IMG/VR virus record: IMGVR_UViG_3300045988_138996
Span: 165,775-229,774 of that record
Direction: 5' to 3' (one strand)
Length of the DNA: 64,000 nucleotides
DNA from: a virus
Every line of letters begins with the position of its first letter. The stretch's first letter is position 1. Position numbers and translations under genes: made by a program. Shown piece after piece: positions 13,060 through 56,831 of the stretch. Below the pieces are notes generated by a model that saw only the letters and a list, made by a program, of their open reading frames with translations, was not told where the DNA came from and made no database searches.

Positions 13060-13060
13060 A

Positions 13061-35887: not shown

Positions 35888-36444
35888 GAGCGAGCGTCAG
35901 CGAGCGACTGTATATTATTTTATATATAGTAAGCCCGAGCGAAGCGAGGGCGTATATATCAAGTTCTCTGTGTACTCTCTTCTAAAGAGAGTAGTTTTGT
36001 ATTTATTTAGTATAGTCTAAGGCGAGCGAAGCGAGCCGTATATTCTTTGTTTACTTTCTTTTTAAGAAAGTAATTATGTTTATTATTTATTATTAGTAGT
36101 TCTCTGCTGTCTCTCTTGTAAAGAGAGTAGTTATATTATTAGTATTTTATATGTATAGATTCTCTGTTATCTCTCTTATCAAGAGAGTAATTAGTTATTT
36201 TATATATATGTATCATAATAGTATTAACGCAGCGAGCGAAGCGAGCGGAGTATGTATTATGTAGTATGTAGTTATTCCCGAAGAACGAGGAACGCTAGTG
36301 ACGAGTGAATTGTAGTGTCCTAGCGTAAGCGACGATCATAAGAGTATATATTGTATATTATATATAGGGCGAGCGAGGGGAGCGTCAGCGACCGGAGCGA
36401 GCATAGTATTATTATATAATATATTATAGGGAGCATAGCGACCG
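35888..36444 (+). repeat. Cluster of GCGA-rich boxes each followed by (G)GTATAT
   Basis: GAGCGAAGCGAG is exact at 35936-35947, 36023-36034 and 36233-36244. Related agcgagcgtcagcgagcgac (35888-35907), gcgagcgaggggagcgtcagcgaccggagcgagc (36367-36400) and gagcatagcgaccgg (36430-36444). All are followed by GTATAT, AGTATG or AGTATT. Confidence 0.7.
35961..36190 (+). repeat. Three copies of a ~45-nt hairpin repeat plus one unrelated 10-bp hairpin
   Basis: TTCTCTG-N-CTCTCTT-loop-AAGAGAGTA at about 35961-35995, 36098-36130 and 36158-36190. ttactttctt/aagaaagtaa hairpin at 36050-36072. Confidence 0.7.
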
Positions 36445-37709
36445 GAGTATATATATAGTCTTATAGGAGCTAGATAGGCCAATAAGGATTGGTGAATATT
36501 TAGTATATCGTGATATAGTATATCGTATTATACTATAGTAGTATATAGTAAATATGTGAGATCCTTATTTACAGTAAAAAGAAAAATTCGGCCTTGAAAA
36601 TTTACAGGTCGTAGACCGGAAAATTTTAAGTATTTTCCGCCCGGGGATATCTATATCATATATATAGTATAAGAAGGAACGTAGTGACTGGTAGATATAT
36701 ATTATGTTAATAATATAGTATATTTTCTGCCGTCGGTATTTTGTTAAAAGAGAGACTACTATATATAATAATTTCCGCCTAGGATATTATGGTTTATATA
36801 TAATATGTTTTTAGTTAATGTTTTTCCTGTATGCATACGCATACAGATATTAAAAACTTTTAGGGTGGGATATCTTATAATAATATTGAACGTCAGTGAA
36901 ATGTTATTATAGATTTAAATCTATATTAGATATAATTTTAATGAGAGCTATTAATGTGAAGAATAGGGAGCGCCGCGAATCTATTCAGCTATTAAAATTC
37001 TTAGTCGACACGATAGTATAGTATGGTAGAGATCGTGTCGATAGGTTACGAGTGCTAACGAGTTATATGTAGAATTCGTTGAGATGAAGGATGTTATCGA
37101 TGAGCCCGCGAAGAGAAACATCGTTCTTTAGAATTCGTAACAATATATCTAATGCGTTTGTGTATTATCAATATATATCAAGAAAATATATACTGATGTG
37201 TTTGAGTGAAGCTTGCGAAAAGAAAAACGCAATCAATTTTTATATATCGTAACGAAGCCCGTAAGGGTTCGTATTAGTATTATATATAGCTTATGAATAT
37301 AAGCGTATGTATATAACTATTAATACGAATTATACCAAAGTATTAGAAGTTAGTAAGCGTCTAATAAGTAGGTGGTTTTTGTTTGGGATCCGCCGTTATC
37401 TTAGTATTTCATTTACTAGCTAAGGTATTTAAAAGTCCCTTGCGTTTATTTTAGTCGAGTTATTTTATATATAATATTATATATAATAATAACGAAGAGC
37501 CATTACTGTTAAGAATGGATAGTAGACGAAATTGGGAACGGGCCCCAATAATAGTTATTATATTCTCTTAGAGAATATATAACGTCAATGGTTCGTCGTG
37601 TACGATCCTTTTCGAGTTTCGCAGAAAATTACGTAAGTAAGAGTTTGTAGCATTTGTAAAATGGGACAACATTTTGTTAGTATTCTCGCTATGTTACACA
37701 TAGCGACAC

Positions 37710-37762: not shown

Positions 37763-37791
37763 GATGAACTACGTTCATCGGTATATTACTC
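37763..37791. promoter_or_regulatory. Class B element 1: 7-bp hairpin plus GGTATATTACTC
   Basis: gatgaac-tac-gttcatc followed by GGTATATTACTC (37780-37791). Confidence 0.65.
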
Positions 37792-37839
37792 ATGTTTAAG
37801 TATAAGTTATTAATAATTTAAAAAAATAATTCAGAAAAT

Positions 37840-37859
37840 AAAAAAGACCCCGAAGGGCC
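37840..37859 (-). terminator. Minus-strand terminator with a UUCG loop
   Basis: On the - strand: ggccc-ttcg-gggtc with a G-T wobble (an A-C mismatch on +), then T6. Confidence 0.6.
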
Positions 37860-37935
37860 ATTTTTATATAAGTATTTTTTTAATATTCAAAGCGGTGCGA
37901 AGCGAAGCGTAGCAAACCGTGGAGCGTAGCGGAAC

Positions 37936-37964
37936 GGTGAACTGCGTTCACCGGTATATTACTC
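37936..37964. promoter_or_regulatory. Class B element 2: 7-bp hairpin plus GGTATATTACTC
   Basis: ggtgaac-tgc-gttcacc followed by GGTATATTACTC (37953-37964). Confidence 0.65.
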
Positions 37965-38097
37965 TGTTTAGATACGTCGTTAATCAAAAATAAAAAAATA
38001 TTTTTTATTTAATTCTATTATATATATAACAAGCAATAAAAAAAACAGCCTCAGATTTTTATGACCTGGACTGTTTTGTGTGTGTAAAAACGGAAGC

Positions 38098-38128
38098 GGT
38101 GTAACGTAGTTACACCGGTATATTACTC
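38098..38128. promoter_or_regulatory. Class B element 3: 8-bp hairpin plus GGTATATTACTC
   Basis: ggtgtaac-gta-gttacacc followed by GGTATATTACTC (38117-38128). Confidence 0.65.
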
Positions 38129-38234
38129 AAGTTAGGTATATCATTAATCAATTTTGTAAAAATAATTAAATATTCATTATTAATGCATAAAGTAAGACAG
38201 GGGTATTTTTAAGTTAAAAAAATAGAAAAAATTA

Positions 38235-38695: not shown

Positions 38696-38984
38696 AGTCC
38701 GCAACACTCTCAAGTTTGTTATTTTTAAGTAAAAACTAGTAAAAATTGTTTATGGCTATTAAAACGATTAAGAGTTGGTAACACTCTGTATTTGCTGTTA
38801 ATTAACTAAAAATGGCTGTTTTTATATATACAGCTATTAAAATCATTTTAAGTCCGCAACACTCATAATGTCTCCCTTTTTACACAAAAACAGCTTATTT
38901 TGCAATAACTAAGTTTCGTATTTTTGCAGTATTTTATAATATTTTAGTTTATGACTATTAATATCTATTAAGTCCACAACATTC
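38696..38984 (+). repeat. Four iteron-like 14-mers (AGTCCGCAACACTC family)
   Basis: 38696-38709 agtccgcaacactc; 38773-38786 agttggtaacactc; 38851-38864 agtccgcaacactc; 38971-38984 agtccacaacattc. The last three are preceded by a CTATTAA-N-ATT-AAG context. Confidence 0.65.
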
Positions 38985-39029
38985 ATAAAAACGTCTTAAA
39001 TAGTTAAAAACAATATATTTTCATATTAA

Positions 39030-39490: not shown

Positions 39491-39508
39491 GTGCTCCGCA
39501 CCGAAATC
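39491..39508 (+). promoter_or_regulatory. Class A hairpin-GAAATC motif, copy f
   Basis: gtgc-TCC-gcac then c-GAAATC. 46 nt before ATG 39554, at the head of the small-gene array. Confidence 0.7.
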
Positions 39509-39553: not shown

Positions 39554-39754
39554 ATGAATCAATATTTAGTCGATGCTATTGTCGATCATGATGATTGGAT
39601 ACGGTATATTAGACCAAGGAAGATGTGTTATTCTGACGATATAAGCGAGAAATATAACCTAGATAATATAATCGTAGCATATAGCAGGAATTATTATAAA
39701 TATAGTGCCGAATTATATTTACAGTATTTAATGTATTTAATGGTAATAGAATGA
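39554..39754 (+). CDS. Small protein, Tyr-rich C-terminal helix family B
   Basis: First ORF after class A motif f. Ends YSAELYLQYLMYLMVIE. Confidence 0.6.
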   Translation: MNQYLVDAIVDHDDWIRYIRPRKMCYSDDISEKYNLDNIIVAYSRNYYKYSAELYLQYLMYLMVIE

Positions 39755-39755
39755 T

Positions 39756-39968
39756 ATGAATAAATTAAAGCTTTTTGAAAAAATAATGTATAGCTTTTTT
39801 AATATAATTAATAAAGACAATAAATATGAAAAATATTATAGCATTAATAATAATAATGGTTATGATATTCTTAAAAAACATTTTATTTATGTCTATGAAA
39901 ATGAAAAATATAATGCCAACGTATACTATTATTACTATATATGGTTAATTATATTGGTAAAAATATGA
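39756..39968 (+). CDS. Small protein, family B
   Basis: Ends YNANVYYYYYIWLIILVKI. Confidence 0.65.
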   Translation: MNKLKLFEKIMYSFFNIINKDNKYEKYYSINNNNGYDILKKHFIYVYENEKYNANVYYYYYIWLIILVKI

Positions 39969-40165
39969 ATAAGAATGAATTAATCGATAATATTATCGAC
40001 GCAGCCTGGATAATAAAAACAAAATATCCAAAATATATGCCGTCTAGAAATTTTCATATAGTCGACGTTGTTACAAGAATTACTGTATATAGTAATGGTA
40101 GTCAAGAAATTAACGGCATGATATATTATAGTTATTGGTTAGTGTTAGGGTGTTTATATGAATAG
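39965..40165 (+). CDS. Small protein, family B
   Basis: ATGA overlap with the upstream stop. Ends INGMIYYSYWLVLGCLYE. Confidence 0.65.
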   Translation: MNKNELIDNIIDAAWIIKTKYPKYMPSRNFHIVDVVTRITVYSNGSQEINGMIYYSYWLVLGCLYE

Positions 40166-40367
40166 TGATGTACCATTTATTATTACTGTTAAAGCATCTA
40201 ATATATATGATGATAATGATAGATATAGTCTTATTAATAATCTTAAAGATAAAGAGCTAATAAATTATATAACAAAGCCAATAGTATTTATAAATAGTCT
40301 TGGCGGCGCATATACTGCTAGGTTATATTATAATTACTATATATATCTATGTGTATTTAGGATATAA
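40158..40367 (+). CDS. Small protein, family B
   Basis: Ends YTARLYYNYYIYLCVFRI. Confidence 0.65.
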   Translation: MNSDVPFIITVKASNIYDDNDRYSLINNLKDKELINYITKPIVFINSLGGAYTARLYYNYYIYLCVFRI

Positions 40368-40369
40368 AT

Positions 40370-40537
40370 ATGAATCAAGAATTGTATCACGCAATAGAAA
40401 GATATATACATAATATAGAATGGTATAGTGTTTTCGATATATATTTAATACATTTAAATCTTAATATCGATATATATCGTTATGGAACGAATGTACTTTT
40501 ATATAAATATTATTTGTATATAATGATCGAGATCTAA
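40370..40537 (+). CDS. Small protein (55 aa), family B, below the ORF-track cutoff
   Basis: Read by hand: MNQELYHAIERYIHNIEWYSVFDIYLIHLNLNIDIYRYGTNVLLYKYYLYIMIEI; stop at 40535-40537. Confidence 0.55.
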   Translation: MNQELYHAIERYIHNIEWYSVFDIYLIHLNLNIDIYRYGTNVLLYKYYLYIMIEI

Positions 40538-40549
40538 TAAGGATAATAT

Positions 40550-40744
40550 ATGGGTATAAAATTGATCTTAGAAGATATTCAAGATAATATGTCGTGCGGT
40601 TATTGTTATCCTAGAAAAATTATAAGTCATTATTATATTCATAATAATCTTATGATTACCGTAGGCGATAATATATTTTATTATGCCGGCGATTATAAAT
40701 ATTATTATTTTTATATATGGTTAATGACATATGGGGTCTTATAA
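40550..40744 (+). CDS. Small protein, family B
   Basis: aagga SD. Ends GDYKYYYFYIWLMTYGVL. Confidence 0.65.
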   Translation: MGIKLILEDIQDNMSCGYCYPRKIISHYYIHNNLMITVGDNIFYYAGDYKYYYFYIWLMTYGVL

Positions 40745-40956
40745 TGAAACATAAAATAACATTTTCTAAATTTAAAGGATTTAATCGCATCGTCGAACTA
40801 GAAAACTTACAAGATGCTATCAATGACTTTATTAGACAAAATAAAGGTCTTAAAGTATGTAATGTTTGTTATAAAGACGATGCATTAATCGGACATATTA
40901 AAGATTTAGACGATTTTGACTACGGTATGATCATTATTAAAGAAGTAGTATCATGA
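40744..40956 (+). CDS. Small hypothetical protein
   Basis: TAATG overlap. MKHKITFSKF...; lacks the Tyr-rich tail. Confidence 0.55.
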   Translation: MKHKITFSKFKGFNRIVELENLQDAINDFIRQNKGLKVCNVCYKDDALIGHIKDLDDFDYGMIIIKEVVS

Positions 40957-41138
40957 TTAAAATAACAAATGAAAAATTATCTGACGCTATTTTTAAATAT
41001 GATTATTATGATCCTGATGATCTTATTCAATATTTAACGTGTGAAAATTTCGAAGAAAAATATCATACATATATGTATACTAAAGGCGAATGTTATTACT
41101 ATTATTATCTATCATTAGGATTAATTTGTAATCTATAA
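40953..41138 (+). CDS. Small protein, family B
   Basis: ATGA overlap. Ends KGECYYYYYLSLGLICNL. Confidence 0.65.
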   Translation: MIKITNEKLSDAIFKYDYYDPDDLIQYLTCENFEEKYHTYMYTKGECYYYYYLSLGLICNL

Positions 41139-41197
41139 AAGCGAACATATATCCGCTTTTAAGAATTTATGCATTTTAATAATAATAATGGAATTTT

Positions 41198-41226
41198 TTG
41201 TAAAAAAAAGTATTTTATGGTATAAT
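41198..41226 (+). promoter_or_regulatory. Sigma-A/sigma-70-type promoter with an extended -10
   Basis: TTGTAA (41198-41203), 17-nt spacer ending in TGG, TATAAT (41221-41226). 14 nt upstream of ATG 41240. Confidence 0.6.
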
Positions 41227-41239
41227 AAAAGGTTATAAT

Positions 41240-41557
41240 ATGTTATATATACAATTGAATAAAGACGGAGCTGTCTTAGATATACTTAGGCAATTAAAAA
41301 GAAATTATGGAAAAATTTGTTTAAGCGGTGCTATTATCGATCACGTCGGTAATATCCCAGATCATTATAATAATTTTAATGTCGTTAAAATAATGCTTAC
41401 TTGTAGTTTATTAAAAGTATTAGGTAAAAAATATAGTGAATATCAAATGGTATTATATGAATATACTTTTAATATTAAAGATAATCGTATCAGTTATGAT
41501 AACGATACAGCCGGGAGTATTATTAAAGCATTAGTCGATATGATGATCGACGACTAA
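41240..41557 (+). CDS. Hypothetical protein
   Basis: aaaagg SD. First ORF after the sigma-A-like promoter. Confidence 0.6.
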   Translation: MLYIQLNKDGAVLDILRQLKRNYGKICLSGAIIDHVGNIPDHYNNFNVVKIMLTCSLLKVLGKKYSEYQMVLYEYTFNIKDNRISYDNDTAGSIIKALVDMMIDD

Positions 41558-41570
41558 TAAGGAGAATAAT

Positions 41571-41801
41571 ATGACTGAAAAAGAAGCAATTATTATCGAA
41601 GAAATTTACTTAATAGAAAATTCATTAAAAGAAAAAACATTAAATTATTTTCTAGACAAATATTATAATGGTAAAGCCTTAGAAAAATTACAACCATTCC
41701 AACGAGAAAAAATTTTAAAATGGATGCAATCGCGTGTTGAGGACGAAGAAATGAATGATGATCGTATTAGCAGCTGGGCTTTAGAACATGGATACTTCTA
41801 A
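41571..41801 (+). CDS. Hypothetical protein
   Basis: aaggaga SD. Confidence 0.65.
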   Translation: MTEKEAIIIEEIYLIENSLKEKTLNYFLDKYYNGKALEKLQPFQREKILKWMQSRVEDEEMNDDRISSWALEHGYF

Positions 41802-42036
41802 TCGCAACAAAAAGCTATTAGCAACTATATTAAATAAAACTTTAGATTTATATAGTATTCGTAAAAACCACAAATATTTTACTCAATCAAATTTTATTAT
41901 TGAAGATGTTCTTAGTAAGCATATAATATTTTTTGACGGCACAAATAAGTACAGTGGTCTTATATATTATCATTATTATATTTGTTTAAGTATAATGCCA
42001 GATTTAACAGAAGTTCCTGACTTGTTAGAAGAATAA
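41788..42036 (+). CDS. Small protein, family B with an acidic extension
   Basis: YSGLIYYHYYICLSIMPDLTEVPDLLEE. Confidence 0.6.
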   Translation: MDTSNRNKKLLATILNKTLDLYSIRKNHKYFTQSNFIIEDVLSKHIIFFDGTNKYSGLIYYHYYICLSIMPDLTEVPDLLEE

Positions 42037-42037
42037 T

Positions 42038-42256
42038 ATGGTAACTAATAAATTATTAGATAAAGTATTTCTCCCGTTACAAATAAGGATTAGCATCGAC
42101 ATATTTAATGAAGATCTTGAGCGTTTTTTGATGGAAGAAAATGCTAAAAAATTATTTCGTGTATATACTTTGACTAATAAGAATCAAAAATATGATGATT
42201 ATTATGGATATTATCTATATTTAATACTTTGTTCTGAAATAGAAAGAATATATTAA
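42038..42256 (+). CDS. Small protein, family B
   Basis: Ends DDYYGYYLYLILCSEIERIY. Confidence 0.6.
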   Translation: MVTNKLLDKVFLPLQIRISIDIFNEDLERFLMEENAKKLFRVYTLTNKNQKYDDYYGYYLYLILCSEIERIY

Positions 42257-42465
42257 TGAATAATAATTATTTAGATAGACTTATCGAATATATGACAATT
42301 CAAGCTCAAAGACGTTTTAATGTTAGAAATGTTAACTATGGATCATTATATAATTTAACGAATCCAAAAGTTGTGTTTGCATATAAAGTCTATCAAAATA
42401 AAGAAGGAGTGTCATATAGTGCCAACATATATTATTGGTATTATCTATGTTTAACAGTATTATGA
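42256..42465 (+). CDS. Small protein, family B
   Basis: TAATG overlap. Ends YSANIYYWYYLCLTVL. Confidence 0.65.
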   Translation: MNNNYLDRLIEYMTIQAQRRFNVRNVNYGSLYNLTNPKVVFAYKVYQNKEGVSYSANIYYWYYLCLTVL

Positions 42466-42746
42466 GTAAGAATTATGCTATCATATATTATATATACGAA
42501 GAAGAATTTAGATATGGTGTTATTCTTATCGATGATAATTATAACAATGCACTATATCGAGCATATTATGAACTATTAAATTCTTTTAAATCATACTATA
42601 TATCAGTAATAGAATCCAACGATCTAAATTATTTAGAAAATATGGAAATTGCATATGACGATCCTAGTTATTATGCTGGTGAGACTCAAAAAGCTATTGA
42701 AGAATGTAATATTACACAAATAATTAAGGATCTGAAATATGAGTAA
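42462..42746 (+). CDS. Hypothetical protein with an internal Tyr-rich helix (family B-related, long form)
   Basis: ATGA overlap. NALYRAYYELLNSF is followed by an acidic C-terminal domain. Confidence 0.55.
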   Translation: MSKNYAIIYYIYEEEFRYGVILIDDNYNNALYRAYYELLNSFKSYYISVIESNDLNYLENMEIAYDDPSYYAGETQKAIEECNITQIIKDLKYE

Positions 42747-42939
42747 CAGTTTATTACAATATAAGCTTATAGTATTTAATAAAATTAAAATAAGAGGTAA
42801 TTCTACATATATATATTTAGATCCTACTATTAATATTTCAAGAATATATAGTTTTTATATGAAAAATAGTCAGTATTATAAATTACATTATATATATTTA
42901 TATTGGATTAATTTAAATTTGGTTGATAAATATGACTGA
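42739..42939 (+). CDS. Small protein, family B
   Basis: Ends YYKLHYIYLYWINLNLVDKYD. Confidence 0.6.
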   Translation: MSNSLLQYKLIVFNKIKIRGNSTYIYLDPTINISRIYSFYMKNSQYYKLHYIYLYWINLNLVDKYD

Positions 42940-43117
42940 TAAAATAACAAAAGAATTAAATAAATTTGTTGATTCCGTATGCCAGAATAGATATAAAATT
43001 GAATATTTATATTTTAAATTGTCATCTATTCCATCATTTATGTTGCATAACCGAGGCAAGTATAAATATATATATTGGTATTACGTATATAAGTTAATGT
43101 TAATAACTAAGATATAA
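42932..43117 (+). CDS. Small protein, family B
   Basis: Start overlaps the upstream stop. Ends KYKYIYWYYVYKLMLITKI. Confidence 0.6.
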   Translation: MTDKITKELNKFVDSVCQNRYKIEYLYFKLSSIPSFMLHNRGKYKYIYWYYVYKLMLITKI

Positions 43118-43119
43118 TT

Positions 43120-43332
43120 ATGATAAATAAAAAAGTAGAAAAAATTTTACATATTTTTACAGAAGATATGTGTCATCGCGACGAAATAGAACCACACAGC
43201 GAACCATATTTAATGTTATATAATACAGACGTTATATTTGATTCACCTGATTGTCCACATTCACATTATTATTACTATAGTTATTATATTTATGTGTTAA
43301 TGGTTAAAGAAAGAGTGTTATATGAAATATAA
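43120..43332 (+). CDS. Small protein, family B
   Basis: Ends HSHYYYYSYYIYVLMVKERVLYEI. Confidence 0.65.
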   Translation: MINKKVEKILHIFTEDMCHRDEIEPHSEPYLMLYNTDVIFDSPDCPHSHYYYYSYYIYVLMVKERVLYEI

Positions 43333-43365
43333 AATACTATCATTAAAAATTTGTGGAAAAATAAA

Positions 43366-43701
43366 ATGATCGATCAACGAATAGTAAAAGAATATTTTAA
43401 TAGTAACGACTATGTCGTCGTAGAATATCATTTCGAAGGAGATAGGATACGTTGTAATATTGAAAAACGTTCTGGCGACACATATCTCAACAAACTATAT
43501 TGGGCTTATTATAATTTATTATCGTTAAGCCATATCAATCGTTATCGTTATTCTATTAATAGTATAGCTAATCTTAGATATTTACAAGTACGATTAAAAT
43601 ATGATGATGATACAACCGACGCTAAAGAAGAACTTAAAGAAGAAATTGTAGGCGAAGATATTATTAACGTACTACGTGAAGTACGTCGTGGTGAATTATG
43701 A
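43366..43701 (+). CDS. Hypothetical protein, family B-related long form
   Basis: ATG 43366 (the track start 43351 is TTG). NKLYWAYYNLLSLSH followed by an acidic tail. Confidence 0.55.
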   Translation: MIDQRIVKEYFNSNDYVVVEYHFEGDRIRCNIEKRSGDTYLNKLYWAYYNLLSLSHINRYRYSINSIANLRYLQVRLKYDDDTTDAKEELKEEIVGEDIINVLREVRRGEL

Positions 43702-43919
43702 TTAGTAAACAAAAAAGAGCTGTGTCGATAACAGATCGAGGCTCTCGTATATATGATCGCTTTGCAAAATATGATATTATATATAATCTTAAAATAATTA
43801 CTAGATTATCAGCAAAGTGCGCATATAAAGACGATGAATATAAGTTTAGTGCTTGTATATATTATAGTTATTATGTAATTTTGCACTTGCTTGATGAAAG
43901 ATATAAGAGGAGAGGATAA
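43698..43919 (+). CDS. Small protein, family B
   Basis: ATGA overlap. Ends FSACIYYSYYVILHLLDERYKRRG. Confidence 0.65.
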   Translation: MISKQKRAVSITDRGSRIYDRFAKYDIIYNLKIITRLSAKCAYKDDEYKFSACIYYSYYVILHLLDERYKRRG

Positions 43920-44179
43920 TGGCTTTTAATATTATTAAATATAATAAAACCAGAGATGACGTATATGTATATATACAAAAGATGCCGGGCATCTATAATA
44001 AAAAATTAAGTTTGTATTTTGCATATATGTATAGTATCTTCGACTTTAGATTTCGATATAGTATTTTTAGAAGTATCGATGTTCAGGATTATACTAATTT
44101 TAGAGCATTAGACAAAGATGCTAATCCTAAAGATACTGATATTTTAAATATATTAAAAAGTAAAAATTATGAAATATAA
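43919..44179 (+). CDS. Hypothetical protein, family B-related long form
   Basis: TAATG overlap. KKLSLYFAYMYSIFDF internal helix. Confidence 0.55.
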   Translation: MAFNIIKYNKTRDDVYVYIQKMPGIYNKKLSLYFAYMYSIFDFRFRYSIFRSIDVQDYTNFRALDKDANPKDTDILNILKSKNYEI

Positions 44180-44441
44180 AATCTTATTAAGAGAAACGCC
44201 AGTCGAAGAATATGCTCATGAATTATTCTACGATACTTTTAATAGTAATTTTAATAGCTCTTTATATGTAACATATTGGCTATTTATTTTATATCCAAAA
44301 AGTAGTGTATACTTAATTAGCATTCCTAAAATAAAATGGTTAACAGAACAAACGTTACCACATTATATATTCATGGAAGAGCTAGAAAAACATAATGTAT
44401 TAAGTATTATAGAAAGGAATAAAGATGAATCTGTTAAGTGA
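44169..44441 (+). CDS. Hypothetical protein, family B-related long form
   Basis: SSLYVTYWLFILYP internal helix. Confidence 0.55.
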   Translation: MKYKILLRETPVEEYAHELFYDTFNSNFNSSLYVTYWLFILYPKSSVYLISIPKIKWLTEQTLPHYIFMEELEKHNVLSIIERNKDESVK

Positions 44442-44796
44442 AACAGAACAAAAGCTTAAAGAACTTAATCTGACATTAGATGATATTCAGTTTGTTATGT
44501 GTACCGAATCTGAATACGGCAGCGATTATATATTTATGAACAAAGATACATTTGTTAAAAATGCTCGATCTGTTATCTATGACAATGGATACGGCTCTCA
44601 AGAAATCAAAAATAATCTTACAGTTTATACAAGAGATTATATTATTTACCGATTTGAATATGACGGCGCAGAATGCTGGAAATATGTTCCGACAATTACT
44701 GGTTTAGATCCATTTTTACAAGACGAAAAACGTTGGAAAGAATTTAAATTTGAATCGAAGGATTATTATAATAATGAAGAACAAATTCCGTTTTAA
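44425..44796 (+). CDS. Hypothetical protein
   Basis: aaagga SD. Confidence 0.6.
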   Translation: MNLLSETEQKLKELNLTLDDIQFVMCTESEYGSDYIFMNKDTFVKNARSVIYDNGYGSQEIKNNLTVYTRDYIIYRFEYDGAECWKYVPTITGLDPFLQDEKRWKEFKFESKDYYNNEEQIPF

Positions 44797-44941
44797 AATT
44801 AATAAATGGGTCAAACTTTCGATTCCGCCAGTATTAATTCCATATTATAAATGGGCAGTATTTGAAAAGCAGAACAAAATTGGTAAAAAGAATTTTAGAT
44901 TATACCACATTTATTTCTTTTCCTTAGAAAAATATTTATAA
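44774..44941 (+). CDS. Small basic protein, uncertain
   Basis: Fills an otherwise ~190-nt gap. No clear SD; the track's alternative start is 44750. Confidence 0.35.
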   Translation: MKNKFRFKINKWVKLSIPPVLIPYYKWAVFEKQNKIGKKNFRLYHIYFFSLEKYL

Positions 44942-44988
44942 TTATAATTAAGAGAAGAAATAATTGTGGATTTTTTTGTAGGAAAAAT

Positions 44989-45291
44989 ATGAGTGGTACG
45001 TATTTTATTACATCGTATGTAGTAAATAATCGAGGTAAGCTATCTCAATTTAAGACATATGAAATAAACAAAATGTTTTCTCATGCATTTTATTTAGCCT
45101 ATTATGGTTATATTAATTACATTTGTGAAAGATATAATATTTGTATGTATCCAGAAAAAGTAATAGGTCAACGTTATGATCTAACGTTTGAACAGATAGC
45201 TTCGATGTACGATGTTGTTCATTGTATTAAAAATAAAGAATATAGTAAAAAAATGAATTCTAAAAAACATAAGTGGTTGAAAATATTTTAG
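44989..45291 (+). CDS. Hypothetical protein, family B-related long form
   Basis: aggaaaaa SD. FSHAFYLAYYGYINYI internal helix. Confidence 0.55.
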   Translation: MSGTYFITSYVVNNRGKLSQFKTYEINKMFSHAFYLAYYGYINYICERYNICMYPEKVIGQRYDLTFEQIASMYDVVHCIKNKEYSKKMNSKKHKWLKIF

Positions 45292-45301
45292 GAGGTATAT
45301 T

Positions 45302-45604
45302 ATGGGTCATACATTAAAACACAACATCGAAGAAACTGGCCGCATCATTAACAGTATCGATATTAATCAATTTAATATTGATCGTCGTAACTATTATATC
45401 GAACAAGTAGAATTTACTGATCAAGGTATATTTCCGATGATTCATTTTGTTATTAGAAATGGTAAAACTAACGCAGTTGATCATCGGTGTGGTACTTTAC
45501 GAAAGATACCAAATGCCAATAAATATGAATATCATGACGGTACTGTTAAAATGTATGATGGATTAATCTGGGAATTTTTAGAAAAAGCAGGAATTATCAT
45601 ATGA
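45302..45604 (+). CDS. Hypothetical protein
   Basis: aggagg SD. Confidence 0.65.
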   Translation: MGHTLKHNIEETGRIINSIDINQFNIDRRNYYIEQVEFTDQGIFPMIHFVIRNGKTNAVDHRCGTLRKIPNANKYEYHDGTVKMYDGLIWEFLEKAGIII

Positions 45605-45819
45605 ATTATGAAGAATACTATAATATTTGTAATTTTGCTCAAAAATTTTATGAAAACGATCCTGAGTTTTTACCGACAAATAATATTCTTGACATATGGA
45701 GAGCTCAGATAAAAAGACATAATGTTATCAGCGATGATTTTAATGCTTTATTCTATTATGAGTATATAATGTATTTAACAGGAATTCGTTCAGAATGTTT
45801 CAAACACAAAAAGAATTAA
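45601..45819 (+). CDS. Small protein, family B
   Basis: ATGA overlap. Ends FNALFYYEYIMYLTGIRSECFKHKKN. Confidence 0.6.
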   Translation: MNYEEYYNICNFAQKFYENDPEFLPTNNILDIWRAQIKRHNVISDDFNALFYYEYIMYLTGIRSECFKHKKN

Positions 45820-46310: not shown

Positions 46311-46529
46311 ATGAAGTATAAATTAATATTCAATAAGTTGAAGTTAGAATATATATGCGACTGTAATGATTTAACAAAAACTATCGATAGTATAATTATG
46401 AATCATCATGGAACTGTTAAGAATTGTCATATGCTTAATTATCAAATATATGGCAATGGCCATGGTAGTAATATCGAAGTATATTTTAATGGGACGTTAC
46501 TCGAAATTATCGAGGTATCGAAAGTATGA
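46311..46529 (+). CDS. Hypothetical protein
   Basis: aaaggaaa SD. Confidence 0.6.
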   Translation: MKYKLIFNKLKLEYICDCNDLTKTIDSIIMNHHGTVKNCHMLNYQIYGNGHGSNIEVYFNGTLLEIIEVSKV

Positions 46530-46921
46530 TCAATTGGTTTAATTGGTTGTATTCGATTCAACATTATAGTCCAATGGTTCGTCAAAAATCAGTCGTTAAA
46601 GATTATTCGACAATCTATTCTTTATTAAAAATAGAAGATACACCATTATTGATTACATTCTTTAGAGACTCTAATAGCGTTGATTTACAAATTATATTTT
46701 TTACATATGATCTTAATAGAAGAATTCGTGATTATTCTATTACATTATCAGCTTTTCCAAAAAGCAATAAATTATATTTAGTATATGCTATCGATAATCA
46801 TTTATTACATAATATATTTAATAAAATTATGTGTGAGCATTTAATCTATTATATGTACTTAGAGACAGATAAAGCGCGACAGTTAATTAACGAAGTACTA
46901 GAGGACTATAGAGATGAGTAA
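46526..46921 (+). CDS. Hypothetical protein
   Basis: ATGA overlap. Confidence 0.6.
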   Translation: MINWFNWLYSIQHYSPMVRQKSVVKDYSTIYSLLKIEDTPLLITFFRDSNSVDLQIIFFTYDLNRRIRDYSITLSAFPKSNKLYLVYAIDNHLLHNIFNKIMCEHLIYYMYLETDKARQLINEVLEDYRDE

Positions 46922-47150
46922 TTACGATAAAAGACCTTCGGCATTTTTTATGTATGCTAAAGATCATGATTTTCGTGAAATATTATCGAAATATATTTTA
47001 TATGATAATGATATCGAAAATAAAAATCCGACTGATCTTGTTATGGATTTGTATAACATGAGAGAGGAGCTAGATGTTTTAGAAGATGAACGAATAATTC
47101 GTGAATATCTAAAATTAGCAAAACTATTAAGGAAACTAGGACAATTATGA
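46914..47150 (+). CDS. Hypothetical protein
   Basis: Start overlaps the upstream end. Confidence 0.6.
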   Translation: MSNYDKRPSAFFMYAKDHDFREILSKYILYDNDIENKNPTDLVMDLYNMREELDVLEDERIIREYLKLAKLLRKLGQL

Positions 47151-47533
47151 ATTGGAGTACATTTGTCGAAGATTATAATGAATTAACTGCTTTGTCATTT
47201 GATCATTTATATCATTTTGGTAAAGAAGATGAAGATTTAGAAATATTTTTATTTCAGCATCCATATAGAATAAATTGGATTAAATATTATTATACATACG
47301 ATATAGATCATAATTACATTAATTTTCAGATCGATATAAAAACATCTGGGAAATATATTCGTTCTATTAATGTATATTTGTCAGAAGATGATAAATTAGA
47401 GTATTTATTAAGAGAAGATGATTTTTTTAATCGTAAAACATTATCTAATATAAATATTCATAAGACTATATTTTTATGGATATATTTTTTAATGCTTATA
47501 AATGGTTTTAATCATAAATTTGTGAGGTTATAA
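47147..47533 (+). CDS. Hypothetical protein
   Basis: ATGA overlap. Confidence 0.6.
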   Translation: MNWSTFVEDYNELTALSFDHLYHFGKEDEDLEIFLFQHPYRINWIKYYYTYDIDHNYINFQIDIKTSGKYIRSINVYLSEDDKLEYLLREDDFFNRKTLSNINIHKTIFLWIYFLMLINGFNHKFVRL

Positions 47534-47904
47534 TGAATTTATTTGATAAATCAAATAGTATTGCTTCTATTTTAGAACGCCATAAAGCTATTAATATTTT
47601 AGATGATATTACTGATATGGAAGTATATAATCATGATTTTAAAATTTATTTTTTAGTTGCTAAAACTATGTTATTGTTAAATAATACATTACCTGAAGTA
47701 TTATGTTTTAGCATTGAAGATGGTGACGATGTTATATATTTTGATCTATTCGTCGAAAAAGATGACGACGAAGATTATGATCCGGTATTTATTACGACTG
47801 AAACCGAAGATAATATTATGAATTATAATGATTCTTTAGAAATATTGTTCCCAGCTTTAATAGAATTAGCTTATTATAAACTAAAGGAACGAATGTTTAA
47901 CTAA
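47533..47904 (+). CDS. Hypothetical acidic protein
   Basis: TAATG overlap, gaggt SD. Confidence 0.6.
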   Translation: MNLFDKSNSIASILERHKAINILDDITDMEVYNHDFKIYFLVAKTMLLLNNTLPEVLCFSIEDGDDVIYFDLFVEKDDDEDYDPVFITTETEDNIMNYNDSLEILFPALIELAYYKLKERMFN

Positions 47905-47953
47905 TAAGTTAAATTAGGGTTGTCATTAATTTACCACCATTTACTTCACGGTC

Positions 47954-47971
47954 GGGCTCCGCCCCGAAATC
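47954..47971 (+). promoter_or_regulatory. Class A hairpin-GAAATC motif, copy g
   Basis: gggc-TCC-gccc then c-GAAATC. Followed by a ccaca..tgtgg hairpin and an AACGAAAGGA leader. 50 nt before ATG 48021. Confidence 0.7.
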
Positions 47972-48020
47972 TTCTCCACACTTTTCTAATGTGGTTTAGT
48001 CAAACGAAAGGAATATAATC

Positions 48021-48377
48021 ATGCAACAAGTAACATTCGAATCTAAAGAACAAGCTAAAGAATTTTTTAGTACATTAGGTGAAAATCTTAAAGCTAGCCA
48101 AAATAAGATTTTTGAATTTAGCGGTCAACAATGGAATTTTAATAGCACTCCAGAAGTGACACCTAAATTAATTAATGCTGTATTAGTATCTGAAAATAAT
48201 GTATTATATGTAACAGCTAATCTAAGTAACGATACAGTATATGCTGATATTGATTTAGAAGATAATATTTCTGGTTTTGGTTATAGCGAATTAGAAAAAT
48301 CTGTATTATTATCTAATTTAGTATATCGTATATTAGAAGATTATACTAAATTTATGTTCTGTAAAAATGAACGATAA
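48021..48377 (+). CDS. Hypothetical protein
   Basis: AACGAAAGGA leader/SD. Confidence 0.65.
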   Translation: MQQVTFESKEQAKEFFSTLGENLKASQNKIFEFSGQQWNFNSTPEVTPKLINAVLVSENNVLYVTANLSNDTVYADIDLEDNISGFGYSELEKSVLLSNLVYRILEDYTKFMFCKNER

Positions 48378-48750
48378 AACTAGCTTTGGTTTACTTAGTA
48401 CGATGTTTTTTAATATAAACTTTTTTCAGGCAAATATACCAAAACTATTAATTGGTGGACGATCTTTTGTATTCGATTTTGGTTATGATAATGAATCAAA
48501 TCTTATTATTAAAACTTGCGACGACTATATAAATAAACAAGTCATATATTTTAATATTAACGTGATGCGCGTCGATTCAATGACTCAGTATTCAGAAAAA
48601 GAATCGGATATATGTCTTTCAAATTTTATGTATCGTACAGTAATTCCGAGAAAAGTCCGTTCTGATTTTGATACATGCAAAATGTTTAATCAATTTAATT
48701 TATATGTACATTATATTATGTTTTCATTTAATTATATGTATTGGAGGTGA
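48367..48750 (+). CDS. Hypothetical protein
   Basis: Overlaps the upstream end. Confidence 0.55.
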   Translation: MNDKTSFGLLSTMFFNINFFQANIPKLLIGGRSFVFDFGYDNESNLIIKTCDDYINKQVIYFNINVMRVDSMTQYSEKESDICLSNFMYRTVIPRKVRSDFDTCKMFNQFNLYVHYIMFSFNYMYWR

Positions 48751-48754
48751 ATGT

Positions 48755-49039
48755 ATGATTAAACTAGGATTTGGATCTGATAAAGAGACACAAAACGTAT
48801 ATAATAGTTTAAAAAAATTTGCTGAAAAGGATATGTTTTCAGAATATTCTATTACAGACTTTGAAGAGAATAAGGCTCGTAATTCTTTTAGATTTACGAT
48901 TGTGTATGATGAAGATTATGTATATTCATATATGGTTTGGTACGAAGCTGGTATTTTAAATATCGAACCAGAAAAAGAAGATTACGTAGCAGAGGATATA
49001 GCATTTGTTCTATATCCGATTGCCGAAATGTTATTATAG
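48755..49039 (+). CDS. Hypothetical protein
   Basis: ggaggtga SD before ATG 48755 (the track's 48668 start overlaps the upstream gene). Confidence 0.6.
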   Translation: MIKLGFGSDKETQNVYNSLKKFAEKDMFSEYSITDFEENKARNSFRFTIVYDEDYVYSYMVWYEAGILNIEPEKEDYVAEDIAFVLYPIAEMLL

Positions 49040-49147: not shown

Positions 49148-49381
49148 ATGGATCAGTTTTACTTAGATAGCATAGCTTTAATCGGATTCATGATAATATG
49201 GTTTATATTTGCAATAATTGTATATCTTTTACATACTGTATATAGAATATATAAAACAAAAAAAATATCAGATTCATTCGAATATGTATTTAAAATGCAT
49301 GCACGAATGTTTTGTAAATTTTATATCACAACAATGTTATTTTTTATATTTTGTGCTTTTCTTAAAAGTATAGTCGAATAG
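49148..49381 (+). CDS. Small two-pass membrane protein
   Basis: Two hydrophobic segments. Confidence 0.55.
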   Translation: MDQFYLDSIALIGFMIIWFIFAIIVYLLHTVYRIYKTKKISDSFEYVFKMHARMFCKFYITTMLFFIFCAFLKSIVE

Positions 49382-50346: not shown

Positions 50347-50646
50347 ATGGAAGAATATATTAGAATTACAGATTGGATGTTATGCCAACATTTTGAGATG
50401 TTGATTAATACGCATCGAATAACTGGTAAATTTAATATTTTAGATTTAGATAATGTAACGTGTGAAATTACATATGATAATGCATATCGTAGACTAAACC
50501 TATTAATTGACGAAGATAATTATTTTGTCAATGCTATTTACGATACCAATGTAAAAACATTGTACTGGTGTATCGGAAATAATATTTCGTTTAACGACTT
50601 TGAAAAAGTATTACAAGAGGCTAAATATGTTCGACCTGTCGTTTGA
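50347..50646 (+). CDS. Hypothetical protein
   Basis: aagagg SD. ATG 50347 (track GTG 50341 is an alternative). Confidence 0.6.
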   Translation: MEEYIRITDWMLCQHFEMLINTHRITGKFNILDLDNVTCEITYDNAYRRLNLLIDEDNYFVNAIYDTNVKTLYWCIGNNISFNDFEKVLQEAKYVRPVV

Positions 50647-50848
50647 GACTCTTGAGTTTTTAAAAATTATTCTTGATATTATTTTAGGATGCATATTAGG
50701 ATTTTTAATACATACCGTATTAACTAAATTTGTCGATAAAGTATTTGATGTATATAATAAAGACGGCGAAATTCATTTATTGTTTATGATATTGCCGTCT
50801 TGTTTTATTGTATTATTACTGTGGGGTATCGTTACATGGATGAGATGA
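50627..50848 (+). CDS. Small two-pass membrane protein
   Basis: agagg SD before ATG 50627. Confidence 0.5.
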   Translation: MFDLSFETLEFLKIILDIILGCILGFLIHTVLTKFVDKVFDVYNKDGEIHLLFMILPSCFIVLLLWGIVTWMR

Positions 50849-54930: not shown

Positions 54931-55644
54931 ATGGGCTCGATATTACTTGCCGAAGAAGAAACAATTGTCCTTTCGACAATATATGATTATGTTGCACAAA
55001 ACCCAACATTAAAATATAACAATATTTATTATCCTGATTCTAAGTATTCCAATATTCAAGTTAATAGAATTTATACATTAGATAATTCTATTATTGTTAA
55101 TATAGAATATACAATTATAAATAATAAAAAAATAAGAGCATTCAGATTAGATCAGGATACTAATACTATTAATTTTGATGATAATATCGATCCTAAATTT
55201 ATTAAAGATATTATGTTTTTACCAGGTGTCGTAAATTTTAAATTTATCGAAACATATAAAAGTAAAATTATATCAGAATTCGCTTTTCTAGTGCGAGATT
55301 GTTATCTTTTTAGAATAAATAGTGGCTATGATTTTTACTATAAATTTTTGTATATATATGCTGATAAATTTAGCGATATAAATAACGGTCCGATGTTTGG
55401 CAGTGATGTTATGTATTCGTCAGAAGAATTAGCTATTCGATTTTTAAAAAACGGATCGATATGTATTGTAGAAAATAGTAATAATTGTAAATATAATGAA
55501 AATGTAGGATTAGTACCATTATATATAATGGAGTATTTAATGCAAGGGTATTATTTAGATGTATTACAAATTCAAAGCGATGTCAAAGAATTTAGACGAC
55601 AATCAGAAGAAAACGCTAATAATTGGATCGCTGTTAATAGATAA
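54931..55644 (+). CDS. Hypothetical protein
   Basis: 237-aa ORF. Confidence 0.6.
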   Translation: MGSILLAEEETIVLSTIYDYVAQNPTLKYNNIYYPDSKYSNIQVNRIYTLDNSIIVNIEYTIINNKKIRAFRLDQDTNTINFDDNIDPKFIKDIMFLPGVVNFKFIETYKSKIISEFAFLVRDCYLFRINSGYDFYYKFLYIYADKFSDINNGPMFGSDVMYSSEELAIRFLKNGSICIVENSNNCKYNENVGLVPLYIMEYLMQGYYLDVLQIQSDVKEFRRQSEENANNWIAVNR

Positions 55645-55945
55645 TAATGAATATTTCATTAATAGTATTCCTGTCGATAAAAAGACTATAGGTCAATCAA
55701 CTGGATTAAAAGATAAACATGGTCAAGAAATATTTATTAACGATATTATTCATTTTAAAGCAAATTATGGTGATTTTATATTAGAATTAGCTACAGCTAC
55801 TGTCGGATTCGATGAATTAAATGGACGCCTTGCTGTTAAGATGAATGACAACATATTGGCATTATGCGACATGAATTATAGTAATGTCGAATACGAAGTA
55901 TTGGGAAATATATGGGAAGGAAAGATACATGAACAGAAACTTTAA
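55559..55945 (+). CDS. yopX: YopX-family protein
   Basis: YKFKAM N-terminus, TIGQSTGLKDKHGQEIFINDII and YEVLGNIWEG fit the YopX pattern (GQyTGlkDknGkeIyeGDi ... eViGNi). Confidence 0.65.
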   Translation: MYYKFKAMSKNLDDNQKKTLIIGSLLIDNNEYFINSIPVDKKTIGQSTGLKDKHGQEIFINDIIHFKANYGDFILELATATVGFDELNGRLAVKMNDNILALCDMNYSNVEYEVLGNIWEGKIHEQKL

Positions 55946-56710: not shown

Positions 56711-56831
56711 CTTTTAAATAAAGAATCCTAATATAATATATTAGGCCTAAGACGTAGGATGCAAGGTGTGAGATAACCTAGACATAGCGTTGATCTTAGG
56801 AGAGCCGTCAGCGAAATGTTGCCGGACATTA

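What the first reader, a model, noticed from the sequence alone, without database searches (positions are those of the whole stretch)
39554..45819. Tandem expansion of at least 15 small genes whose products end in a Tyr-rich helix (Y-S/N-A-x-[ILV]-Y-Y-x-Y-[YW]-[ILV]-x-L)
Fifteen ORFs of 55-82 aa are mostly coupled by ATGA/TAATG overlaps. They end in near-identical aromatic C-termini, for example NANVYYYYYIWLIILVKI, TARLYYNYYIYLCVFRI, SANIYYWYYLCLTVL, SACIYYSYYVILHLL, SGLIYYHYYICLSIM and GECYYYYYLSLGLICNL, while their N-terminal ~45 aa are highly divergent. Interleaved longer ORFs (42462, 43366, 43919, 44169, 44989) have the same helix internally (LYRAYYELL, LYWAYYNLL, LYFAYMYSI), followed by acidic tails. 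Similar Tyr-rich ends recur up to 54.3 kb. The array starts right after a class A motif and the ORF-free hub, as host-takeover modules of large Gram-positive phages do. I recognise no known family. A shared docking or oligomerisation (or membrane tail-anchor) helix with hypervariable heads would fit a diversified set of effectors, anti-defence proteins or decoys.
Basis: seen in the sequence. Interest (0 to 1): 0.78.

Follow-up and report, generated by a model that had tools for sequence, protein, structure and literature searches.

The report
Tandem Tyr-helix mini-protein family, jumbo phage
An uncultured ~230-kb phage from human metagenomes carries a real, old array of about 15 related genes for ~65-residue soluble proteins built around a tyrosine-packed helix; the family matches no known family or fold, and its function is inferred only, probably a set of host-targeting factors.

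Summary
Fifteen tightly packed + strand ORFs (55-82 aa, 39554-45819) carry a Tyr cluster 11-24 residues from the C-terminus. 13 of 15 have at least 4 Y/W in 6 residues, against 2.65+-1.4 in shuffles and 3 of 54 neighbouring ORFs.

Homology support is uneven. When a member's own orthologs are left out, profiles support 8 members strongly and 4 moderately. Three (40370, 42739, 42932) fit only by size, position and motif.

The interpretation needs correcting:
- The heads are homologous, not free-form.
- AlphaFold gives one compact alpha/beta domain (pLDDT 86.7) in which the Tyr helix is an integral element.
- No segment is membrane-like.
- Each paralog is a separate orthogroup, kept in the same order in 18 related loci with 12-17 copies each (counting only the 16 loci over 11 kb).
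- dN/dS is 0.22-0.60 (pooled head 0.45, tail 0.24).

So this is an ancient, stable multigene family, not a hypervariable cassette.

An exhaustive search of 1.84 billion representatives found 18 clusters, all from this phage clade. Pfam, PHROGs, NCBIfam and PDB gave nothing.

The longer interleaved ORFs share the motif only. 42462 and 43366 are related to each other, and 43919 only marginally.

The array starts about 60 nt after a conserved 16-nt motif. Function is inferred: paralog-specific binders for host takeover or anti-defence.

The parts
39493..39508 (+). It probably marks the start of the transcription unit.
   Evidence: 5 copies in the window, all + strand and intergenic, 0 expected by chance. 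18 core positions are invariant in the alignment. In 17 of 18 related loci a copy lies about 60-75 nt (motif start to ATG) before the first family member.
39554..39754 (+). a1, 66 aa, moderately supported member
   Evidence: Leave-orthogroup-out 11.3 bits, z 4.5. hhalign against the core 83%. omega 0.29. Orthologs in 7 of 19 sources (18 loci plus the window); other relatives hold a different paralog in this slot.
39756..39968 (+). a2, 70 aa, strong member
   Evidence: E 1.5e-7 with its orthogroup left out. hhalign 97%.
39965..40165 (+). a3, 66 aa from the internal ATG (74 aa from 39941), strong member; this is the protein that was modelled
   Evidence: E 4.7e-15. AF2 pLDDT 86.7, pTM 0.70. Close database relatives are called as 66-aa proteins whose BLAST match covers 89% of the 74-aa ORF, which fits the internal ATG; the sequence of P0002 was not read to confirm the start. 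Present in all 19 sources.
40158..40367 (+). a4, 69 aa, strong member
   Evidence: E 1.1e-9. hhalign 97.7%. Present in all 19 sources.
40370..40537 (+). a5, 55 aa, probable member; not significant by sequence statistics
   Evidence: 1.2 bits, z 1.8. Has the Tyr cluster YKYYLY. omega 0.31. A natural in-frame chimera with a7 exists (P0128).
40550..40744 (+). a6, 64 aa, moderately supported member
   Evidence: 6.7 bits, z 3.5. hhalign 57% to a2 and 45% to a8. omega 0.26.
40953..41138 (+). a7, 61 aa, moderately supported member
   Evidence: 10.8 bits, z 4.6. omega 0.50. In 18 of 19 sources.
41788..42036 (+). a8, 82 aa, strong member with a short acidic extension after the helix
   Evidence: E 4.5e-11. 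hhalign 97.4%.
42038..42256 (+). a9, 72 aa, strong member
   Evidence: E 9.6e-6. omega 0.31.
42256..42465 (+). a10, 69 aa, strong member
   Evidence: E 5.7e-8. hhalign 95%.
42739..42939 (+). a11, 66 aa, probable member; not significant by sequence statistics
   Evidence: 0.5 bits. Tyr cluster YIYLYW 16 residues from the end. omega 0.22. Conserved slot in 16 sources.
42932..43117 (+). a12, 61 aa, probable member; not significant by sequence statistics
   Evidence: 0.7 bits. Tyr cluster YIYWYY. omega 0.30.
43120..43332 (+). a13, 70 aa, moderately supported member
   Evidence: 8.6 bits, z 3.8. hhalign 84%. omega 0.25.
43698..43919 (+). a14, 73 aa, strong member, basic (K+R 16 against D+E 8)
   Evidence: E 8.6e-10. 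Charge counts.
45601..45819 (+). a15, 72 aa, strong member, detached from the main run
   Evidence: E 3.8e-4. hhalign 81%.
42462..42746 (+). B1, a longer ORF with an internal LYRAYYELL and an acidic tail. It belongs to a second family, paired with B2.
   Evidence: phmmer E 5.5e-6 to 43366. hhalign 84%. No significant link to family A.
43366..43701 (+). B2, 111 aa, second family
   Evidence: AF2 model poor, pLDDT 62.
43919..44179 (+). B3, 86 aa, marginal relative of B1 and B2
   Evidence: phmmer E about 0.01. hhalign 14%.
44169..44441 (+). Longer ORF with an internal LYVTYWLF; motif-level resemblance only
   Evidence: hhalign below 12% to B1-B3 and to family A. Conserved in 16 sources, omega 0.32.
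44989..45291 (+). Longer ORF with an internal FYLAYYGYI; motif-level resemblance only
   Evidence: hhalign 8% to the family A core. omega 0.27.
47956..47971 (+). Next copy of the 16-nt motif, the probable downstream boundary of the unit that contains the array
   Evidence: In the 5 relatives whose fetched locus reaches far enough, the next copy lies 9.6-10.5 kb downstream.

Best explanation
This is an ancient multigene family restricted to one phage clade.

Shown:
- About 15 tandem, same-strand, probably co-transcribed and translationally coupled genes each encode a ~65-residue soluble alpha/beta mini-domain. The predicted order is N-terminal amphipathic helix, two short helices, beta-hairpin, C-terminal helix.
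- The family is real and covers the full length of the proteins.
- Each paralog is a separate orthogroup kept in fixed order across relatives and under purifying selection.
- No membrane-like segment and no known relatives.

Inferred:
- The Tyr-rich helix (hYYxYYhxL) is the aromatic core element that holds the small fold together, not a detachable docking tag.
- Because each paralog is conserved separately, the copies are not redundant. Each presumably presents its own conserved surface on a common scaffold. Net charge ranges from about -6 to +8.
- The array opens the low-GC accessory arm just after a conserved motif, so the products most likely act as a panel of small binders or inhibitors of different host targets, or possibly phage targets (host takeover or anti-defence).
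- Expression timing and the binder function itself are not tested.
For: Family and full-length homology:
- Leave-orthogroup-out HMM scores reach E 5e-15. The head contributes significantly in six members.
- Pairwise phmmer reaches E 6e-9. Orthogroup-versus-core hhalign gives 81-98% for nine members.
- The iterated HMM converges on exactly these 15 window ORFs and 254 ORFs in the window plus 18 loci, all on the + strand.

Fold:
- AF2 pLDDT 86.7, pTM 0.70, elements H11-28/h/h/E48-51/E56-58/H60-72.
- An independently computed BFVD model of a paralog with 26% identity superposes at TM 0.66, rmsd 2.3 A.

Coding and constrained:
- omega is 0.22-0.60 for all 15 members.
- The tail has lower dN than the head (0.109 against 0.159) but not lower dS (0.454 against 0.352). 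The constraint on the Tyr helix is therefore on the protein, not on the DNA.

Ancient and stable:
- 18 orthogroups.
- 12-17 copies in the 16 related loci longer than 11 kb, in conserved order.
- Paralogs share 16-30% identity; orthologs share 65-98%.

Soluble: KD19 below 1.0 in every member.

Unit structure: the motif lies just upstream of a1 here and in 17 of 18 relatives.

Orphan: Pfam, PHROGs, NCBIfam, PDB sequences and PDB folds all negative. Only 18 clusters among 1.84e9 representatives, all from this clade.
Against: - There is no functional, expression or interaction evidence, and the host is unknown.
- The AF2 model rests on an alignment of only 15 paralogs and on a monomer. I could not inspect coordinates, so 'Tyr helix is the core' rests on the high-confidence compact model and on the helix being hydrophobic or aromatic all round. 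It was not measured as burial.
- Three of the 15 ORFs cannot be shown to be homologous by sequence.
- A helix face with four tyrosines is also what an interaction surface would look like, so oligomerisation is not excluded.
- omega of 0.45-0.85 in some heads shows rather relaxed constraint.
Confidence: 0.55

Rival explanations
1. Assembly model. The conserved Tyr helix is an interface through which the paralogs homo- or hetero-oligomerise. The array would then encode subunits of one multi-subunit assembly (ring, filament or lattice) rather than independent effectors.
For: The most conserved positions of the family are the four tyrosines and the flanking Leu/Ile. Tyr-rich surfaces are typical of protein interfaces (general knowledge). 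Tight translational coupling favours near-stoichiometric co-production. The fixed gene order and retention of nearly all paralogs in 18 relatives would fit obligatory partners. The unrelated longer ORFs carry a similar LYxAYY helix that aligns in register.
Against: AF2 folds the monomer confidently with this helix in place. In a 65-residue domain a fully hydrophobic 13-residue helix is needed for the core. Copy content varies between relatives: a1/a2 are swapped for other paralogs, a5/a6 are lost and natural chimeras occur. That is easier to tolerate for independent factors than for a fixed complex. No multimer prediction could be run.
Confidence: 0.17
2. Membrane model. These are small membrane-associated proteins whose aromatic C-terminal helix sits in or on the membrane as a tail anchor or interfacial helix, acting for example in superinfection exclusion, cell-division block or lysis timing.
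For: The C-terminal position of a Tyr/Trp/Leu/Ile-rich segment. Tyr and Trp favour membrane interfaces (general knowledge). Several genuinely membrane-like small ORFs occur further along the same arm, such as 49148-49381 and 50627-50848 (sequences).
Against: The longest uncharged run is 7-15 residues. The maximum 19-residue Kyte-Doolittle mean is 0.28-0.96, well below the ~1.6 usually taken for a transmembrane helix. In a8, a13, a14 and a15 charged extensions follow the helix. AF2 packs the helix into the domain at pLDDT above 90.
Confidence: 0.06
3. Artefact model. The ORFs and the motif are by-products of 25% G+C DNA (TAT-rich sequence), or of a repeated DNA-level signal such as promoter-like TATTAT/TATAAT boxes, and do not encode real proteins.
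For: The region is 25% G+C. Tyr, Ile, Asn and Lys codons are AT-rich. DNA-level repeats of 65-84% identity cover the motif.
Against: All 15 ORFs have omega 0.22-0.60. Tail dS is not reduced. Shuffles keeping composition do not reproduce the cluster. Neighbouring ORFs of the same G+C have half the Tyr content. Promoter-like sites are not enriched: 114 found against 99.6+-10.3 expected. TAC and TAT are both used, and Y/W/F substitutions occur at the conserved positions. Every ORF is kept open in up to 19 sources.
Confidence: 0.02

Closest known systems
Host-takeover module of Bacillus phage SPO1 (gp37-gp60) and the terminal-repeat-encoded small proteins of Twort-like/Herelleviridae phages (from my own knowledge)
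   Same: A dense, same-strand block of very small genes of unknown ancestry, placed directly after a non-coding regulatory stretch in a large phage of a probably low-GC Gram-positive host.
   Different: Those modules are collections of mostly unrelated genes, not one paralog family. There is no sequence or fold similarity. Early timing, strong early promoters and terminal redundancy are documented for them and untested here.
Multigene families (MGF100/110/300/360/505) of African swine fever virus, and paralog families of giant viruses (from my own knowledge)
   Same: Tandem arrays of old, strongly diverged paralogs on one strand. Copy content changes between isolates at particular hot spots, including in-frame chimeras created by deletion between paralogs. 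Those families are thought to act on host responses.
   Different: They belong to eukaryotic viruses and encode larger proteins, with no homology to this family. Here most slots are remarkably stable across relatives.
Poxvirus 'genomic accordion' amplifications (for example K3L) (from my own knowledge)
   Same: Tandem copy-number expansion of a host-interaction gene.
   Different: Accordions are recent, near-identical, transient copies. Here paralogs share only 16-30% identity and each has its own orthologs at 65-98%.
Anti-CRISPR / anti-defence gene islands of phages (from my own knowledge)
   Same: Clusters of 50-150-residue orphan proteins with no database matches, located in accessory regions that vary between related phages.
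   Different: Such islands usually mix unrelated families and carry an HTH regulator (aca). Here one family dominates, no HTH domain was detected in it, and no anti-defence profile library was available to test membership.
'Hypothetical protein' records of Myoviridae sp. ctJ2i1 and Caudoviricetes sp. (for example DAV32706-DAV32733, A0A8S5V244)
   Same: Ten window members were looked up by exact sequence and all ten are already deposited; close orthologs are deposited too.
   Different: All are unannotated. No family, fold or array has been described for them in the libraries and papers I could search.

Membership tests
Tandem paralogous multigene family (generic) | Members are significantly similar to each other when self and orthologs are excluded | tested here: met
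   Eight members at E 4e-4 to 5e-15 and four at z 3.5-4.6; three are not significant. Pairwise phmmer down to E 6e-9.
Tandem paralogous multigene family (generic) | Adjacent, same strand, and conserved as an array in relatives | tested here: met
   All 254 hits are on the + strand. 12-17 copies in the 16 related loci longer than 11 kb, in conserved order.
Any curated protein family (Pfam-A, PHROGs, NCBIfam) or solved structure | Significant profile or fold match | tested here: not met
   Pfam best E 0.031. PHROGs has one member at E 9e-4 to an unnamed family. NCBIfam best E 0.017, far below its cut-offs. PDB sequences best E 0.069. Foldseek against PDB best E 3.3.
Tail-anchored or single-pass membrane proteins | Uncharged hydrophobic segment of about 18-20 residues or more (Kyte-Doolittle 19-residue mean of about 1.6 or more) | tested here: not met
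   Maximum KD19 0.28-0.96. Longest uncharged run 7-15 residues.
Recent gene amplification ('accordion') | Near-identical copies within one genome | tested here: not met
   Paralogs share 16-30% identity. Each has its own orthogroup.
Hypervariable or diversifying cassette (arms-race heads, DGR-type targets) | Excess non-synonymous change in the variable part among orthologs | tested here: not met
   Head omega is 0.24-0.85, pooled 0.45. Only gene-region averages were computed; site-wise tests were not run, and I did not look for a reverse transcriptase.
SPO1-type host-takeover module | Block of small genes directly downstream of a regulatory non-coding region or promoter cluster | tested here: inconclusive
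   The array starts 45 nt after the end of a conserved motif and after a 4-kb ORF-free region. Whether the motif is a promoter is unknown. Sigma-70-like sites are not enriched.
SPO1-type host-takeover module | Early expression and shut-off of host functions | not testable with these tools
   The phage is uncultured and the host unknown. No match in representative bacterial genomes.
Anti-defence (Acr-type) island | Homology to known inhibitors, or association with an aca-type HTH regulator | not tested
   No anti-defence library was available. No HTH Pfam domain was found in the 15 members.

The most novel reading that the evidence does not exclude
The Tyr-helix mini-domain is a previously unseen fold that the phage uses as a modular binder scaffold. 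The ~15 conserved paralogs (plus alternative cassettes in the first slots of relatives) would each neutralise a different host defence or housekeeping target, or would assemble through the aromatic helix into a combinatorial takeover complex. That would be a phage counterpart of the multigene families of large eukaryotic viruses.
Probability: 0.25. Interest if true: 0.75.

Novelty: new variant of a known kind. Interest (0 to 1): 0.5.

Why it matters
Phage genomes rarely keep large families of diverged paralogs. Fifteen or more copies of one orphan mini-domain, kept in fixed order across a widespread clade of ~230-kb phages from human metagenomes, imply that each copy earns its keep. Clusters of individual members hold up to 238 sequences.

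If the copies target different host factors, the array is a ready-made panel of small, foldable inhibitors with a common scaffold. It would also show that jumbo phages use the multigene-family strategy known from large eukaryotic viruses.

Practically, the family profile gives a marker for this phage clade and defines a new, apparently fold-level orphan family for structural work.

Tried and rejected
- Megablast of the region against 50,697 phage records: no match.
- The search for related loci with the family alignment failed because no stretch was conserved enough. A single member worked instead.
- Scan of GTDB representative genomes for a8: no relative, so no host clue.
- Full-text search for 'OTKONC', and for tandem paralog arrays in jumbo phages: nothing useful.
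- Pfam, PHROGs, NCBIfam and PDB sequence searches: no significant match.
- Foldseek against PDB: nothing. Against BFVD: only paralogs from the same phage clade.
- Attempt to show that the longer ORFs share the family A fold: hhalign 3.6%; the AF2 model of 43366 was poor at pLDDT 62; its Foldseek search was therefore meaningless. I reject the claim that they belong to the family but keep the motif-level resemblance as unexplained.
- DNA-signal explanation of the Tyr motif: rejected, because tail dS is not reduced and promoter-like sites are not enriched.
- Winged-helix reading of the H-h-h-hairpin topology: rejected, because Foldseek finds no such match in PDB.
- Attempt to identify which paralogs the two weaker BFVD hits represent: the cluster look-up showed that the ctJ2i1 orthologs of a11 and a9 carry other accessions than those hits, so it gave no extra support for the weak members.

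Full report
CONTEXT. The window is a one-strand stretch of an uncultured large phage.
- All but one ORF of at least 150 aa are on the + strand; the exception lies nested within a + strand ORF.
- It encodes a DnaE-type polymerase at 9-2858, whose best phage relative is only 35% identical, followed by tail and structural genes.
- G+C falls from about 40% to about 25% at 36-38 kb and stays low to the end of the window.
- Between 35.4 and 39.55 kb there is no credible ORF. That stretch holds an Rfam OTKONC RNA and several short repeat families.
- The 10 window proteins looked up by exact sequence are deposited as 'hypothetical protein' of a Caudoviricetes sp. assembly and occur on contigs of about 230 kb. 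A close relative is Myoviridae sp. ctJ2i1.
- Relatives come from human metagenomes, including HMP-labelled assemblies. A preprint reports that circular jumbo phages are common in the human mouth (10.1101/2020.07.06.186817). Whether this clade is among them was not checked.

THE OBSERVATION.
- The Tyr cluster is real. 13 of 15 have at least 4 Y/W in six residues, always 11-24 residues from the C-terminus. Shuffles give 2.65+-1.4, and 3 of 54 other ORFs of the same arm reach this.
- Tyr content is 14.6%, against 6.9% in neighbouring ORFs.

IS IT A FAMILY? MAFFT aligns the 15 over their full length.
- I removed circularity by leaving out each member together with its orthologs from 18 related loci.
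- Eight members then score E 4e-4 to 5e-15 (39756, 39941, 40158, 41788, 42038, 42256, 43698, 45601).
- Four are moderate (39554, 40953, 43120, 40550; z 3.5-4.6).
- Three are not distinguishable from shuffles (40370, 42739, 42932).
- Profile-profile comparison gives the same ranking.
- With the C-terminal 22 residues kept and only the head shuffled, the score still drops significantly in six members (z 2.9-10).
- The profile has conserved anchors along the whole chain: I9, Y24, N29, L36, [VI][YF]41-42, Y49, then YYxYY[LI]xL.
- The heads are therefore divergent but homologous.
- The three unsupported ORFs share size, slot in the array, motif position and purifying selection. One of them (40370) forms a natural in-frame hybrid with 40953 in another genome, joined at the shared 'YL' (P0128). 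I count them as probable members.

STRUCTURE. AlphaFold2 on 39941 with the 15-paralog alignment gives pLDDT 86.7 and pTM 0.70.
- The elements are helix 11-28, two short helices, a hairpin (48-51, 56-58) and the Tyr helix (60-72).
- Foldseek finds nothing in PDB (best E 3.3).
- In BFVD it finds only proteins of Myoviridae sp. ctJ2i1, including a paralog of 26% identity at TM 0.66 and rmsd 2.3 A. That is an independent prediction of the same fold.
- No member has a membrane-like segment.
- I infer that the Tyr helix is the aromatic core element of a small soluble domain. I could not inspect coordinates, so burial is inferred rather than measured.

EVOLUTION. The family is closed.
- An exhaustive HMM search of 1.84 billion representatives found 18 clusters at E up to 1e-3, all from this phage clade.
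- The word-indexed search found 322 proteins. The best 120 are all orthologs (65-98% identity) of four window members.
- In 18 related loci, every locus longer than 11 kb has 12-17 members, all on the + strand. This is probably an undercount: a family-like ORF at L005 12995-13189 was missed.
- The members fall into 18 orthogroups and keep the same order.
- Flux is limited to hot spots. The first two slots hold a1/a2 in a few genomes and other paralogs in most. A 1.4-3 kb insert of unrelated ORFs lies between a4 and a5 in many relatives. Some members are occasionally lost. Deletion chimeras occur between paralogs (P0127, P0128, P0130).
- dN/dS against orthologs is 0.22-0.60 for all 15, similar to neighbouring genes (0.11-0.59).
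- Pooled head omega is 0.45 and tail omega 0.24. Tail dS (0.454) is not lower than head dS (0.352). Selection therefore acts on the protein, and the heads are not hypervariable.

SURROUNDINGS. A 16-nt motif, GCTCCGC[A/C/T]CCGAAATC, occurs five times in the window, always on the + strand and intergenic.
- One copy ends 45 nt before a1, and the next is at 47956.
- In 17 of 18 related loci a copy lies about 60-75 nt (motif start to ATG) before the first family member. In the five loci that reach far enough, another copy lies 9.6-10.5 kb downstream.
- The array plus its interleaved genes thus looks like one motif-delimited unit of about 8.4 kb (inferred).
- A hairpin followed by an extended -10-like site at 41139-41226 may subdivide it.

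THE LONGER ORFS. 42462 and 43366 are related to each other (E 5.5e-6, hhalign 84%), and 43919 marginally.
- 44169 and 44989 cannot be linked to them or to family A.
- The family A profile against a 125-sequence profile of this second group gives 3.6% probability, although the 20 aligned columns are exactly the two Tyr helices.
- The AF2 model of 43366 is unreliable (pLDDT 62).
- The shared LYxAYY helix remains an unexplained resemblance.

MECHANISM.
- Shown: a real, ancient, stable, protein-level-constrained family of soluble mini-domains with no known relatives.
- Inferred: non-redundant paralogs on one scaffold, with net charges from about -6 to +8, placed at the head of the accessory arm. 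They most likely act as a panel of small binders of different host or phage targets (host takeover or anti-defence).
- Rivals: hetero- or homo-oligomeric assembly through the Tyr helix (not excluded); membrane association (disfavoured); compositional or DNA-signal artefact (essentially refuted).

VERDICT. It is a new, fold-level orphan family arranged as a multigene array, a known kind of viral genome feature that is unusual in phages at this copy number and stability. Interest is moderate, at 0.5.

Noticed in passing
window 37519-37684 (+); L001 7513-7677; L005 7223-7383; L014 7426-7595; L018 7012-7177: An Rfam OTKONC RNA (RF03053; 160 bits against a gathering score of 141) lies in the 4-kb ORF-free region upstream of the array. 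It is conserved at the same place in all four relatives I scanned. No paper mentioning the name was found in the searchable library.
   Followed up: partly
window 31233, 33923, 39493, 47956, 53898 (all +): The 16-nt motif GCTCCGC[A/C/T]CCGAAATC has about 18 invariant positions, with 0 copies expected by chance. It always sits in intergenic gaps ahead of gene blocks. The inner G[G/T]GC-TCC-GC[C/A]C hairpin shows one compensatory change at 39493. It could be a phage-specific promoter or a transcript-processing site.
   Followed up: partly
window 35962-36201, 37776-38167, 38696-39011: Three families of short direct repeats lie in the ORF-free hub: 4 x 44 nt, each with a CTCTCTT..AAGAGAG hairpin; 3 x 55 nt starting CACCGGTATATTACTC; and 4 x 41 nt starting AGTCCGCAACACTC. 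Several IMG/VR contigs of relatives break inside or just before this hub.
   Followed up: no
window 55559-55945 and 55884-56312 (+): A separate pair of adjacent paralogs (128 and 142 aa, phmmer E 1.5e-16) whose ORFs overlap by about 60 nt.
   Followed up: no
window 59721-60983 (+); L001 15071-16961: A TnpB (OrfB_IS605 plus Cas12f-like TNB domain) sits in the window after a 570-nt G+C-rich non-coding stretch. In relative L001 an IS607-type serine recombinase plus TnpB, followed by a RAGATH-18 RNA, is inserted inside the small-gene array, between the 44774 and 44989 orthologs.
   Followed up: partly
P0127, P0128, P0130 (related metagenomic contigs): Natural chimeras were formed by deletion between array genes. 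P0127 is the a2 head joined to the a4 second half. P0128 is the a5 head joined in register to the a7 tail at a shared 'YL'. P0130 is the start of the non-family gene 41240 joined to a10.
   Followed up: partly
L005 10230-13189 (and the equivalent gap in most relatives): Many relatives carry a 1.4-3 kb insert of unrelated 105-167-aa ORFs between a4 and a5, which are adjacent in the window. The insert includes an extra family-like ORF (12995-13189, ending YYYYYIYVCVFRI) that the HMM threshold missed.
   Followed up: no
window 46526-49039 and beyond: The arm downstream of the array holds many 110-130-aa ORFs with weak mutual similarity (for example 48021/48367 at E 1e-3, and 46526/47147). This suggests further, more diverged paralog groups. 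47147 and 49383 also contain Tyr clusters but do not join family A.
   Followed up: no
window 56705-56895: A 190-nt intergenic stretch is markedly more G+C-rich than its surroundings and ends in a hairpin plus T-run. No Rfam family reached its gathering score there.
   Followed up: no
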